NCBI GenBank assembly: GCA_025361045.1
Contig: JANYAZ010000309.1
Coordinates: forward strand, 1 to 49,055
Source of the DNA: Geothrix sp.
Lineage (GTDB): Bacteria > Acidobacteriota > Holophagae > Holophagales > Holophagaceae
Direction: 5' to 3'
DNA length: 49,055 bases
Shown: piece by piece, positions 2,610 to 5,618 of the stretch
How positions within the stretch are numbered: the first letter of the stretch is position 1
Layout of the letters: every line of letters begins with the position of its first letter
Translations under genes and position numbers: made by a program
Notes under the pieces: model-generated
Seen by the model: the letters and a program-made list of their open reading frames with translations, nothing else
Database searches by the model: none
What the model was told of the DNA's origin: nothing

Positions 2610-4322
2610 TCATGGCTTCCTGGGGGACTGGTAGGCCTGGTCATGGACATCCAGGACGGCCCGGCCGGAAGGGTCGGTCATCTTGGCGAAGGAGGCGTCC
2701 CAGCGCAGGGCCGTCTCCGTGCTGCAGGCCACGCTGCGCTCGAAGGGCACGCAGTTCACGGCGGTGGCGCTGGGGAAGTGGTGCTCGAAGAGCTGGCGGT
2801 AGAAGTAGGCCTCTTTGGTTTCCGGCGTCTTCACCGGGAAGCGCTCGGCAGCCCCGGCCATCATGCTGTCGCTGATCTCCCGTTCCGCCGTGGCCTTGAG
2901 GGCATTGATCCAGGCATAACCGACGCCATCGGAGAACTGCTCTTTCTGGCGCCAGAGCACCTCATCGGGGATGAAGCCATCAAAGGCCTGCCGCAGGGGG
3001 AACTTCTCGATGGGCCGGGGGCGGGCGGCGTTGCGCGGCAGCTTCACCGAGGGATCCATGCGCATGGCCACGTCCAGGAACTCGCGGTCCAGGAAGGGCA
3101 CGCGGGCCTCGACGCCCCAGGCGGCGCTGGACTTGTTGGCCCGGGCGCAGTCGTAGAGGTGCAGCTTCTGAAGCTTTCGCACGGTCTCGAAATGGAGCTC
3201 CGGCCCGTCCGGGGCCTTGTGGAAGTACAGATAGCCGCCGAAGATCTCGTCCGCGCCCTCGCCGGACAGCACCATCTTGATGCCCATGGCGCGGATCTTC
3301 CGCATGAGGAGGTACATGGGCGTCGAGGCCCGGAGGGTGGTGACGTCGAAGCTTTCGATGTGGTAGATCACGTCGGAGAGGGCGTCCAGGCCCTCCTGCA
3401 CGGTGAAATGGATCTCGTGGTGGATGGCGCCGATGTGGTCGGCCACGAGGCGGGCCGGCGCCAGGTCCGGCGCACCTTTTAGGCCGATGGCGAAGGAGTG
3501 GATCCGGGGCCACCAGGCGGGCGCTGAGCCGCCCTCCTCCACGCGGCCTTCGCGGTACTGGGCGGCGATGGCCGAGACCAGTGATGAGTCCACGCCGCCG
3601 GAGATGAGCACACCGTAGGGCACGTCGCACATGAGTTGGCGCCGCACGGCGGCCTCCAGCGCGGCGCGGAGTCTGGCCGGGTCATAGGGCTCCGAGGGGA
3701 CATGTCCTGGCGCGGCCCAGTCCGGCTCGTAGTAGCGCTGGAAGCCCTTGTCGGCCTCGTGGCCCAGGAAGAAGTGGCCCGGGGGCACCTCGCGGATGCG
3801 CTCGCAGTGGCCCACGAGGGCCTTCATTTCGGAGGCGACATACAGGTGGTCGTGGCGGTCCCAGCCCACGTAGAGGGGGATGACGCCGATGGGATCCCGG
3901 GCGATGAGGTAGGTTTCGCGCTTGGGATCGTAGAGCACAAAGGCGAAGATCCCGTTCATGCGGTTGAGGAAGTCGCGGGGTTTGAGTTCGTCGTAGAGGT
4001 AGAGGATCACTTCACAGTCCGACAAGGTCTGGAAGTCGTGGGACTCTTTCAGGCCATGTCGGAGTTCCTGGTGGTTGTAGATTTCTCCGTTGACCGCCAG
4101 CACCGTGCCCTGGAGGGTGTCGATGAGGGGCTGGGCCCCATGTTCGACATCCACGATGGAAAGCCGCTCATGGACCAGGATGGCCCGGTCGTCGCTGAAG
4201 ATGCCGCTCCAGTCCGGCCCGCGGTGGCGGATCTTGCGGGCCATGGCCAGGGCTTGGCGCCGCAGGTCGGCCACCGGGGACTTTACCGGATCCAGATCGA
4301 GGATGCTGACGATGCCGCACAT
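2610..4322 (-). CDS. asnB: Asparagine synthetase B (glutamine-hydrolysing)
   Basis: MCGI N-terminus (Ntn Cys), HRGPD, NGEIYNH, SGGVDSS, SGEGADE; GGAG SD before ATG 4322. Confidence 0.97.
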   Translation of the reverse strand: MCGIVSILDLDPVKSPVADLRRQALAMARKIRHRGPDWSGIFSDDRAILVHERLSIVDVEHGAQPLIDTLQGTVLAVNGEIYNHQELRHGLKESHDFQTLSDCEVILYLYDELKPRDFLNRMNGIFAFVLYDPKRETYLIARDPIGVIPLYVGWDRHDHLYVASEMKALVGHCERIREVPPGHFFLGHEADKGFQRYYEPDWAAPGHVPSEPYDPARLRAALEAAVRRQLMCDVPYGVLISGGVDSSLVSAIAAQYREGRVEEGGSAPAWWPRIHSFAIGLKGAPDLAPARLVADHIGAIHHEIHFTVQEGLDALSDVIYHIESFDVTTLRASTPMYLLMRKIRAMGIKMVLSGEGADEIFGGYLYFHKAPDGPELHFETVRKLQKLHLYDCARANKSSAAWGVEARVPFLDREFLDVAMRMDPSVKLPRNAARPRPIEKFPLRQAFDGFIPDEVLWRQKEQFSDGVGYAWINALKATAEREISDSMMAGAAERFPVKTPETKEAYFYRQLFEHHFPSATAVNCVPFERSVACSTETALRWDASFAKMTDPSGRAVLDVHDQAYQSPRKP

Positions 4323-4331
4323 GGGAACTCC

Positions 4332-4370
4332 AAAAAGAAATAACCCCGATCCGCTGTCGCGAATCGGGGT
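4332..4370 (-). terminator. Intrinsic terminator (attenuator 3:4 hairpin) immediately upstream of asnB
   Basis: Minus strand ACCCCGATTCGC-GACA-GCGGATCGGGGT (12 bp with one G.U, GNRA loop) followed by TATTTCTTTTT. Confidence 0.9.
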
Positions 4371-4390
4371 GGTCCGGGGTGTCAGGAATC

Positions 4391-4477
4391 TTAGGAGAGA
4401 CCCTTGCCGGCCCACGCGCGATTCGCGCGAGGGAGGCGATTGGTATTGCGGTTGGGCCGCAGGGGGGAAAGGGTCAT
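4391..4477 (-). CDS. Putative asnB leader peptide [28 protein letters not shown] (28 aa, 4 Asn)
   Basis: Translated by hand from ATG 4477 to TAA 4391; Asn at codons 9, 11, 13 and 19; overlaps alternative hairpins; below the ORF-track size cutoff. Confidence 0.8.
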
Positions 4478-4492
4478 GGGTTACCTGATAGA

Positions 4493-4522
4493 ACCTTATC
4501 GGTCCCCTTCACGGATCGTCAA
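4493..4522 (-). promoter_or_regulatory. Sigma70-type promoter for the asnB leader
   Basis: TTGACG (4522-4517) - 18 nt - TAAGGT (4498-4493), 15 nt before the leader ATG. Confidence 0.6.
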
Positions 4523-4586
4523 GGCTCGATTGAAAAAGGTGGTTCCTCTTGCTCTTGATGATGAAATGGTCCGGTTGGAGGCCCGA

Positions 4587-5618
4587 ATGAAAGCCCTGTT
4601 GAAGACGAAACGCGAGGAAGGCATCTGGATGGGGGATGTCCCCATGCCCGAGGTGGGGCCCAATGACGTGCTGATCCGCGTGCACAAGAGCGCCATCTGC
4701 GGCACCGATGTCCACATCTACAACTGGGACGAGTGGGCCCAGAAGACCATTCCCGTGCCCATGGTGGTGGGCCACGAATACGTGGGCGTCATCGAGCAGG
4801 TGGGCGCCGAGGTGGAGGGCTATCACCCGGGCGACCGGGTTAGCGGGGAGGGGCATATCACCTGCGGCCACTGCCGCAACTGCCGGGCGGGCAAGCGCCA
4901 CCTCTGCCGCAACACCGTGGGTGTGGGGGTGAATCGCTCGGGCTCCTTCGCCGAGTACCTGTCCATTCCCGCTTTCAACGTGTTCAAGGTGCCCGACAAC
5001 GTACCCGATGATGTGGCTGCCATCTTCGACCCGTACGGCAATGCCGCCCACACAGCTCTTAGCTTCGACATGGTGGGAGAGGACGTTCTCATCACCGGTG
5101 CTGGCCCCATCGGCATCATGGCCGTGGCCATCGCCAAACACGTAGGCGCGCGCCATGTGGTCATCACCGATGTGAACGACTATCGGCTCGACCTGGCCCG
5201 GAAGATGGGTGCCACGGTTGCCGTGAATCCCACGAAGAAGAGCCTTCCCGAAGTGATGAAGGACCTGGGTATGACCGAAGGCTTCGATGTGGGCCTTGAG
5301 ATGAGCGGCAATCGCAATGCCTTCGAATCGATGCTCGAGGCCATGCACCACGGTGGCCGCGTCGCCCTGCTGGGCATCCTCCCCGGCGACTGCGCCATCG
5401 ACTGGAGTCAGGTGATCTTCAAGGGGCTGATCCTGAAGGGCATCTATGGCCGGGAGATGTTCGAGACCTGGTACAAGATGGCCGCCATGGTCCAGAGCGG
5501 CCTGGATATCACCCCGGTCATCACCCACCACTACGGCATCGACGACTTCCAGAAGGGCTTCGACGCCATGCGCAGCGGGCAGAGCGGGAAGGTGATTCTG
5601 AATTGGGGGGTACGTTAG
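4587..5618 (+). CDS. tdh: L-threonine 3-dehydrogenase
   Basis: MKAL.., [55 protein letters not shown]; GGAGG SD. Confidence 0.97.

What the first reader, a model, noticed from the sequence alone, without database searches (positions are those of the whole stretch)
4332..4522. Candidate asparagine-sensing ribosome-mediated attenuator controlling asnB
Seen on the minus strand, in order: promoter TTGACG-N18-TAAGGT, then the leader ORF 4477-4391 ([28 protein letters not shown]) with Asn at codons 9, 11, 13 and 19 (three are AAT), then three mutually exclusive helices. The 1:2 helix is CCCUCGCGCG-AAU-CGCGCGUGGG (4433-4411). The 2:3 antiterminator pairs leader CGCGAAUCG..GUGG.CCGG (4427-4407) with CCGG.CCAC..CGAUUCGCG (4377-4358), 9+4+4 bp. 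The 3:4 terminator is a 12-bp stem with a GACA loop and U tract, ending 9 nt before the asnB ATG. Established: this is the trp/his/thr/leu attenuator architecture. Inference: stalling at Asn 9-13 masks segment 1, allows 2:3 and lets transcription enter asnB, while full translation covers segment 2 so the terminator forms. Asn is not among the textbook leader-peptide systems (asn genes are usually linked to AsnC or T-boxes), but I cannot check whether this has been predicted before.
Basis: partly seen in the sequence, partly recalled or inferred. Interest (0 to 1): 0.92.

Follow-up and report, generated by a model that had tools for sequence, protein, structure and literature searches.

The report
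Asparagine-sensing leader attenuator before asnB
A conserved asparagine-rich mini-gene followed by hairpins predicted to switch between "stop" and "go" sits in front of the asparagine synthetase gene of a Geothrix-like bacterium and likely turns the gene on when asparagine runs short, a textbook control device that I did not find described for asparagine, and the same RNA scaffold with aromatic codons in the asparagine slot precedes an aromatic-pathway gene in the same genome.

Summary
The downstream gene is asnB; the closest named relatives are Geothrix/Holophagaceae. An Asn-rich leader ORF precedes asnB in 76 of 87 family loci read. Asn13 is invariant in 72 of 72 aligned leaders, while Asn19 is mostly Asp and is only RNA scaffold. 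Xanthomonadales carry leaders with different stems. Across 101 modelled leaders the antiterminator is lost 0-1 codon after the last Asn in 82 (no shuffle control). AsnRS is encoded. New here: the same scaffold, with Phe/Tyr/Trp in the Asn slot, precedes a DAHP synthase in this genome, and Pro- and Phe-rich leaders precede proB and pheA: a natural codon-swap control. Against: no expression data, little two-sided covariation within the family, and read-through must be kinetic. No Rfam, NCBIfam or paper match (ten searches); one 2010 table lists only the Xanthomonas terminator, unannotated. This scan already noted Asn attenuators on other DNA (12 notes). Verdict: classical attenuator with a likely new specificity.

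The parts
4517..4522 (-). predicted -35 box TTGACG
   Evidence: TTG and C in 49 of 49, A in 48 of 49 same-genus leaders
4493..4498 (-). predicted -10 box TAAGGT, 18-nt spacer; start site inferred near 4486
   Evidence: T 48/49, A 49/49, last T 49/49; strict scan did not list it
4483..4486 (-). short AGG element 6 nt before the leader ATG, possible ribosome-binding site at the 5' end of the RNA
   Evidence: AGG at a similar place in most of 49 same-genus leaders; function inferred
4391..4477 (-). leader ORF, 28 codons plus stop
   Evidence: leader before asnB in 76 of 87 family loci
4439..4453 (-). sensing window: Asn9, Asn11, Asn13
   Evidence: Asn13 column Asn in 72 of 72 (59 AAT, 13 AAC); Asn9 63 of 72; Asn11 60 of 72
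4411..4433 (-). 1:2 hairpin (predicted pause/protector); encodes the R-A-N/D-R-A-W scaffold
   Evidence: -15.3 kcal/mol; 99.4% of cells paired in 72 leaders
4358..4427 (-). 2:3 antiterminator: 4427-4419 with 4366-4358, 4415-4412 with 4372-4369, 4410-4407 with 4377-4374
   Evidence: -32.2 kcal/mol; 9-bp core 98.3% paired, outer helix 86.6%
4332..4370 (-). 3:4 intrinsic terminator (stem 4370-4343) and U tract (4342-4332)
   Evidence: 98.3% paired in 72 leaders
4399..4475 (-). extra predicted helix not in the finding: start region 4475-4469 with 4405-4399, closing over 1:2 in untranslated RNA
   Evidence: own-partner duplex -10.9 vs -9.2 kcal/mol for swapped genera, 64 of 2000 permutations as good; not seen in genera g9 and g11
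4328..4331 (-). GGAG ribosome-binding site of asnB, outside the terminator stem
2610..4322 (-). asnB, glutamine-hydrolysing asparagine synthase B, 570 aa
   Evidence: NF006949 814 bits vs cut-off 499; TIGR01536 437 vs 267
4575..5618 (+). divergent tdh (L-threonine 3-dehydrogenase); neighbour, not part of the switch
   Evidence: NF003808 over cut-off; divergent in 37 of 49 same-genus loci

Best explanation
A conserved Asn-rich leader ORF and an overlapping predicted terminator/antiterminator lie between a predicted promoter and asnB, and they likely act as a classical ribosome-mediated transcription attenuator that would read charged tRNA-Asn. Steps: (1, inferred) RNA polymerase starts near 4486 and pauses at the 1:2 hairpin until a ribosome loads on the leader. 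(2, predicted by folding) If Asn-tRNA is scarce the ribosome waits at Asn11 or Asn13, covers the 5' strand of the extended 1:2 helix but stops just short of 4427, frees the CCGG/GUGG toehold, and 2:3 zips up as segment 3 emerges; this pre-empts the terminator long enough for polymerase to pass the U tract into asnB. (3, predicted) If Asn-tRNA is plentiful the ribosome runs past codon 15-16 to the stop, melts segment 2, 3:4 forms and transcription ends near 4335. (4, inferred) Because the genome has AsnRS and a discriminating-type AspRS motif, Asn-tRNA tracks free asparagine, closing a feedback loop on AsnB. The RNA scaffold is modular: the same one serves an aromatic-codon leader before a DAHP synthase.
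For: Conservation: 76 of 87 family asnB loci; Asn 14.2% of 2001 leader codons vs about 2.0% in long ORFs and 2 of 1929 in each other frame. Asn13 changes only synonymously (59 AAT/13 AAC of 72), whereas the six hairpin codons keep third positions and change first or second positions: selection on the amino acid in the window and on the RNA in the stems. Pairing kept: 99.4% (1:2), 98.3% (2:3 core), 98.3% (3:4); the variable 2:3 pair is A-U 27, G-U 36, G-C 9, A-C 0. Different stems, same geometry: 21 of 30 Xanthomonadales-order loci read carry an Asn leader and hairpin-U tract; switch point 0-1 codon after the last Asn in 82 of 101 leaders and terminator arm free with the ribosome at the stop in 98 of 101. 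Codon swap: scaffold with F/Y/W before DAHP synthase in 24 of 30 loci, Pro-rich leader before proB in 30 of 30, Phe-rich leader before pheA, Thr-run leader before an aspartokinase-like gene. AsnRS over cut-off in this genome and matched in 75 of 76 near-complete family genomes; no asnA found; no archaeal-type non-discriminating AspRS over cut-off in 5 near-complete relatives.
Against: No transcript end, ribosome or reporter data; the only RNA runs found were contigs that did not cover the homologous leader. Two-sided covariation inside the family is scant: 2 pairs (1:2), 0 in the 2:3 core, 1 pair (3:4); for 2:3, 45 of 500 shuffles reached the same percentage paired. At equilibrium 3:4 beats 2:3 by about 10 kcal/mol on the full RNA, so the model needs kinetics. 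Without a ribosome the terminator arm was still mostly sequestered at equilibrium in 84 of 101 truncated RNAs, so the default state of untranslated RNA is uncertain. Four of six short-type (g14) leaders gave no clear switch in the model. The genome also has gatB alongside GlnRS, so an indirect route to Asn-tRNA is not excluded. Eleven of 87 family loci have no leader. Relatives are not independent samples, and one search had no shuffle control.
Confidence: 0.9

Rival explanations
1. Same attenuator, but the signal is not free asparagine alone: Asn-tRNA is partly made by GatCAB transamidation, or the interleaved Arg/Pro codons co-sense, so the switch reports nitrogen (Gln/Asp/Arg) status.
For: gatB over cut-off and GlnRS both present, which leaves GatCAB without an obvious Gln-tRNA job; Arg is 15.9% and Pro 8.4% of leader codons.
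Against: AspRS shows Leu and Lys at the positions that mark discriminating enzymes (motif recalled, not from a call); no archaeal-type ND-AspRS in 5 relatives. The Arg between Asn codons is replaced by Leu or Ala in several genera and coincides with a small GCGG/CCGC hairpin in about 50 of 72 leaders.
Confidence: 0.05
2. The leader peptide itself (R-A-N/D-R-A-W) is a nascent-chain arrest motif or a general sensor of slow translation, as in ermC- or tnaC-type leaders.
For: The motif is nearly invariant in 72 leaders and recurs in the DAHP-synthase leader.
Against: Third codon positions are frozen while residues change (N/D/G, R/S/C, A/V/T, W/V); a stall there removes the antiterminator in the model; several Xanthomonadales leaders and the g14 leaders lack the motif but keep the Asn run.
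Confidence: 0.03
3. A translation-independent element (riboswitch, T-box-like or protein-bound leader, or a constitutive terminator yielding a small RNA); the ORF is incidental.
For: The RNA is far more conserved than pairing alone requires; no data show the ORF is translated.
Against: No Rfam match near threshold; no T-box in 5 relatives; start and stop codons and frame are kept while leader length varies by whole codons; the enriched amino acid follows the downstream enzyme in four further leaders.
Confidence: 0.02

Closest known systems
Classical leader-peptide attenuators of amino-acid operons (trpL, hisL, leuL, thrL, pheL, ilvL; recalled, and summarised in passages of PMC5864092 and PMC4833913)
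   Same: Short ORF with clustered cognate codons, 1:2 / 2:3 / 3:4 alternatives, intrinsic terminator before the first biosynthetic gene, last sensing codon one ribosome footprint before the antiterminator.
   Different: Senses Asn; found in Acidobacteriota (Holophagaceae), Gemmatimonadota and Xanthomonadales; no sequence match to any Rfam 15 family; Xanthomonadales and g14 versions are predicted leaderless (-10 box 6-7 nt before ATG); one scaffold is shared by Asn and aromatic leaders in the same genome.
Computationally found uORF attenuators: cysS uORFC-8-2 and aroF uORFC-13-1 (PMC8632094, passages), ilvB uORFC-75-1 (PMC11109978, passages), Listeria Rli60 (PMC5864092, passages)
   Same: Same logic outside enterobacteria; an aroF leader with Phe codons is described for Acholeplasma.
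   Different: Other amino acids, genes and phyla; asparagine and asnB do not occur in the main text of the two discovery papers.
Premature terminators before Xanthomonas asnB (PMC2965389, supplementary Table S8 rows)
   Same: Five Xanthomonas rows list a terminator 62-65 nt before asnB, the distance range of the homologous terminators seen in Xanthomonadales loci here; likely the same element (inference).
   Different: Attenuator annotation is '-'; no leader peptide, antiterminator or Asn sensing is named, and the main text does not mention asparagine.
Asn T-box (Firmicutes) and AsnC control of asnA (recalled)
   Same: Goal: couple asparagine supply to asn genes; T-boxes also read tRNA charging.
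   Different: No T-box fold; no asnA found in this 84%-complete genome; the sensor here would be the ribosome.

Membership tests
Classical ribosome-mediated transcription attenuator | Short leader ORF with clustered codons for one amino acid | tested here: met
Classical ribosome-mediated transcription attenuator | That amino acid is the product of the downstream gene | tested here: met
   asnB equivalog; swapped codons match swapped genes
Classical ribosome-mediated transcription attenuator | Intrinsic terminator between leader stop and first gene | tested here: met
   predicted only; found in 101 of 102 leaders
Classical ribosome-mediated transcription attenuator | Mutually exclusive antiterminator using the terminator 5' arm | tested here: met
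   predicted; two-sided covariation weak within the family
Classical ribosome-mediated transcription attenuator | Stalling at sensing codons leaves segment 2 free; reaching the stop covers it | tested here: met
   model with an assumed 12-nt footprint: 82 of 101 and 98 of 101
Classical ribosome-mediated transcription attenuator | Untranslated leader defaults to 1:2 plus terminator (superattenuation) | tested here: inconclusive
   window: 1:2 and 2:3 states equal within 1.3 kcal/mol, barrier 18.4; arm sequestered at equilibrium in 84 of 101
Classical ribosome-mediated transcription attenuator | Cognate aminoacyl-tRNA made directly from the free amino acid | tested here: met
   AsnRS over cut-off; gatB also present
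Classical ribosome-mediated transcription attenuator | Leader translated, RNA polymerase pause, terminated RNA, read-through on starvation | not testable with these tools
   contig-only RNA runs were uninformative
T-box riboswitch | Stem I with specifier loop and T-box antiterminator (RF00230) | tested here: not met
   no match in 3500-5500; 0 of 5 relatives
Nascent-peptide arrest leader | Peptide motif conserved at the amino-acid level with free synonymous change | tested here: not met
   opposite pattern in the hairpin codons

The most novel reading that the evidence does not exclude
An undescribed asparagine class of leader-peptide attenuator that spans at least three phyla, moved into Gemmatimonadota together with asnB, and in Geothrix belongs to a modular family in which one RNA switch was duplicated and re-tuned simply by swapping the codons in the sensing window (Asn for asnB, Phe/Tyr/Trp for DAHP synthase; related leaders use Pro for proB/proC and Phe for pheA).
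Probability: 0.7. Interest if true: 0.7.

Novelty: new variant of a known kind. Interest (0 to 1): 0.62.

Why it matters
It adds asparagine, and in passing proline, to the amino acids read by leader-peptide attenuation, and extends the mechanism to Acidobacteriota and Gemmatimonadota. It gives a likely function to a terminator flagged but left unexplained before Xanthomonas asnB in 2010. The pair of leaders with one scaffold and different sensing codons in one genome is a rare natural view of how attenuators change specificity, and a ready-made control for experiments. The mechanism itself is textbook, and this scan has already noted Asn attenuators in other lineages.

Tried and rejected
Rfam: three chance-level hits at 3500-5500 (E 0.6-5, far below gathering); 0 hits in five homologous loci. 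NCBIfam: no family for the leader peptide. Strict sigma-70 scan: 0 sites; promoter judged by conservation instead. Model R1 found matches in 9 of 151 Acidobacteriota genomes, all in this family, and 2 of 151 genomes of the Gemmatimonadota phylum sample: not found elsewhere in those searched, with strict filters that also missed a g14 leader. Asn19 and Trp22 as sensing codons: rejected. Translational attenuation: rejected, since the asnB ribosome-binding site lies outside the stem and the leader-stop-to-ATG distance varies from about 62 to 133 nt in the family. Literature: ten full-text searches returned 0, 1, 0, 0, 4, 1, 0, 1, 0, 1 papers, none describing an Asn attenuator; PMC3219751, PMC1262725, PMC5850271, PMC7968998 and PMC12623061 were seen as listings only. 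PMID 20198868 (comparative survey of attenuation) is not held and the supplement of PMC11109978 could not be read; either could hold an earlier prediction. The protein tree is the quick version; the careful search did not finish and no clade test was run.

Full report
What is there. On the minus strand the window reads, in order: TTGACG (4522-4517), 18 nt, TAAGGT (4498-4493), a 28-codon ORF (4477-4391) with Asn at codons 9, 11, 13 and 19, a 12-pair hairpin (4370-4343) with an interrupted U tract (4342-4332), GGAG, and an ATG at 4322. The gene is asnB (NF006949 814 bits against a cut-off of 499); tdh runs divergently. The closest named AsnB relatives, at 88-89% identity, are Geothrix (Holophagaceae, Acidobacteriota). 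The region folds at z = -4.09, and only 8 of 10,665 short ORFs in the genome have three Asn in five codons.

Conservation in the family. Of 133 family genomes searched I read the upstream DNA of 87 asnB loci with an intact 5' end; loci truncated at or near the start, and two duplicates, were left out. 76 of 87 have a 14-36-codon ORF with at least two Asn ending 55-140 nt before asnB: g1 49/50, g10 6/6, g11 5/5, g9 5/5, g8 2/2, g15, g5 and g4 1/1 each, g14 6/12, g7 0/3, g6 0/1. Seventy are of the window's type; six in g14 are a shorter type with another terminator. One same-genus genome keeps the promoter but has lost the whole leader (L125). In the alignment of the 70 plus two Gemmatimonadota leaders, Asn makes up 14.2% of 2001 codons, against about 2.0% in long ORFs of the genome (shadow ORFs not removed) and 2 of 1929 in each other frame. 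The Asn13 column is Asn in 72 of 72 (59 AAT, 13 AAC), Asn9 in 63 and Asn11 in 60. The six hairpin codons behave the opposite way: third positions are nearly frozen while residues change, and position 19 is AAT 27, GAT 44, GGT 1. So the window is selected as asparagine, and the hairpin as RNA.

Structure evidence, for and against. Pairing is kept in 99.4% of cells for 1:2, 98.3% for the 9-bp 2:3 core, 86.6% for its outer helix and 98.3% for 3:4. The one variable core pair is A-U 27, G-U 36, G-C 9 and never A-C. But the stems are so invariant that two-sided changes are few (2, 0 and 1 pairs), and for 2:3 45 of 500 shuffles reached the same percentage. The stronger evidence is between lineages. 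Of 50 asnB matches in 101 Xanthomonadales-order genomes, 30 loci were read: 21 carry an Asn-rich leader and a hairpin-U tract with stems unlike the window's, one looks decayed, eight have none. I modelled 102 leaders (72 window type, 6 short type, 24 Xanthomonadales); a terminator was found in 101. With a ribosome covering 12 nt past the first A-site base (an assumption; PMC4833913 gives a similar figure, passage) and RNA cut at the terminator loop, the terminator 5' arm stays sequestered until 0-1 codon after the last Asn in 82 of 101 and is free with the ribosome at the stop in 98 of 101. Four short-type leaders gave no clear switch, and no shuffle control was run. Against the simplest textbook picture: on the full-length RNA the terminator wins at every ribosome position, by about 10 kcal/mol, and without a ribosome the arm was still mostly sequestered at equilibrium in 84 of 101. 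For the window, the barrier from 1:2 to 2:3 falls from 18.4 kcal/mol (no ribosome) to 16.4, 12.0 and 10.8 with Asn9, Asn11 or Asn13 in the A site. An extra helix pairs the start region (4475-4469) with 4405-4399 and props up 1:2 in untranslated RNA; it has modest cross-genus support (64 of 2000 permutations as good; absent in g9 and g11).

Promoter. The -35 TTGAC and the -10 T-A-n-n-n-T with an 18-nt spacer are conserved in the 49 same-genus leaders. In Xanthomonadales and g14 the best -10 box mostly ends 6-7 nt before the leader ATG, which predicts leaderless translation; in the window's genus the gap is about 15 nt and holds an AGG.

Can Asn codons report asparagine? The genome encodes AsnRS over the cut-offs of two models, as do 112 of 133 family genomes by cut-off and 75 of 76 near-complete ones by match and 5 of 5 outside genomes tested. 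One tRNA-Asn(GTT) was found; AAT is 25% of Asn codons in long ORFs but 180 of 284 in the leaders. No asnA was found (genome 84% complete). gatB and GlnRS are both present, a caveat; the AspRS has the discriminating-type residues (motif recalled) and no archaeal-type non-discriminating AspRS passed cut-off in 5 near-complete relatives.

A natural codon swap. A covariance model of the Asn leaders hit three more places in the same genome. At C158:8436-8575 (E 1e-13) the same hairpin codons, antiterminator and terminator follow a window of Phe, His, Tyr and Trp, in front of a DAHP synthase; my simple parser recovered this leader in 24 of 30 loci read, with Tyr-Trp ending three codons before the hairpin where the asnB leader has its last Asn three to four codons before it. 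At C67 a Pro-rich leader precedes proB (30 of 30 loci read, Pro 20.5%), at C123 a Phe-rich leader precedes pheA, and in a relative a Pro-rich leader precedes proC. In a g14 genome a seven-Thr leader with terminator precedes an aspartokinase-like gene, back to back with the Asn leader. The enriched residue thus follows the downstream pathway five times, which chance, a riboswitch or an arrest peptide would not predict.

Spread. R1 matched 9 of 151 Acidobacteriota genomes, all in this family, and 2 of 151 in the Gemmatimonadota sample, both before asnB. In a quick tree of 32 AsnB proteins the two Gemmatimonadota proteins with window-type leaders sit inside Holophagaceae as sister to the window's genus (SH-aLRT 95), which suggests transfer of gene plus leader; the leader-bearing Xanthomonadales proteins form a separate clade (100) (no clade test).

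Mechanism. Most likely (0.9): classical attenuation. Shown: sequence, conservation, gene identities, AsnRS. Predicted: the helices and the footprint geometry. Inferred: pausing, translation of the leader, kinetic pre-emption of the terminator, response to asparagine. Rivals: nitrogen-status or co-sensing variant (0.05), arrest peptide (0.03), translation-independent element (0.02).

What is known. No Rfam 15 family or NCBIfam model matches. Ten full-text searches found no Asn attenuator. I saw passages of PMC4833913, PMC11109978, PMC5864092, PMC2965389, PMC8632094 and PMC3771888, a zero-hit term search of PMC5737381 and of the readable supplement of PMC8632094, and rows of Table S8 of PMC2965389, which lists unannotated premature terminators 62-65 nt before asnB in five Xanthomonas genomes. 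PMID 20198868 and the supplement of PMC11109978 could not be read and may bear on priority. This scan has 12 earlier notes of Asn attenuators in at least 10 other genomes (unchecked AI notes, not counted as evidence), none with sequence like this window and none naming these taxa.

Verdict. Real and conserved; a member by all computable features of the classical attenuator kind, with a specificity not found in print: new variant of a known kind. Interest 0.62.

Noticed in passing
G000:C158:8436-8575 (+), locus L199: Paralogous attenuator with the same scaffold but Phe/His/Tyr/Trp codons, before a DAHP synthase (TIGR00034); recovered in 24 of 30 loci read.
   Followed up: partly
G000:C67:11459-11579 (+), L200; also L209 (proC) and L214: Pro-rich leader with terminator before proB (30 of 30 loci read, conserved N-P-x-P-like core) and before proC in a relative: candidate proline attenuator.
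   Followed up: partly
G000:C123:16341-16465 (+), L201; L210; L213: Phe-rich leader with terminator before pheA (chorismate mutase/prephenate dehydratase); a Phe/Tyr/His leader before a class II DAHP synthase-like gene in genus g9.
   Followed up: partly
L159:401-530 (+): Leader with seven consecutive Thr codons and a terminator before an aspartokinase-like ORF (named from its start motif, recalled), divergent from the Asn leader.
   Followed up: no
window 4508-4522 (-): The promoter spacer is conserved beyond need (G6 92%, T8 94%, G11, G13, A14 92%, A15 98% of 49) and forms an imperfect palindrome with the -35 box: a possible operator or overlap with the divergent tdh promoter. Unexplained.
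   Followed up: partly
L125:560-603: A complete same-genus genome keeps the promoter but has lost leader and terminator, so asnB would be unattenuated: a natural deletion control.
   Followed up: partly
L033, L036, L216: Gemmatimonadota asnB genes with Asn leaders; L033 and L036 nest inside Holophagaceae in the AsnB tree, suggesting transfer of gene and switch together.
   Followed up: partly
L176: In one small Xanthomonadales genome the leader looks decayed (fewer Asn codons, mismatched hairpin).
   Followed up: no
family survey: Two AsnRS types occur in the family (about 430-450 bits and about 610-630 bits against TIGR00457); they do not track presence of the leader in a simple way.
   Followed up: no
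L147 (between terminator and asnB): A short tandem repeat of a 7-nt unit lengthens the spacer between terminator and asnB start in one g8 genome.
   Followed up: no
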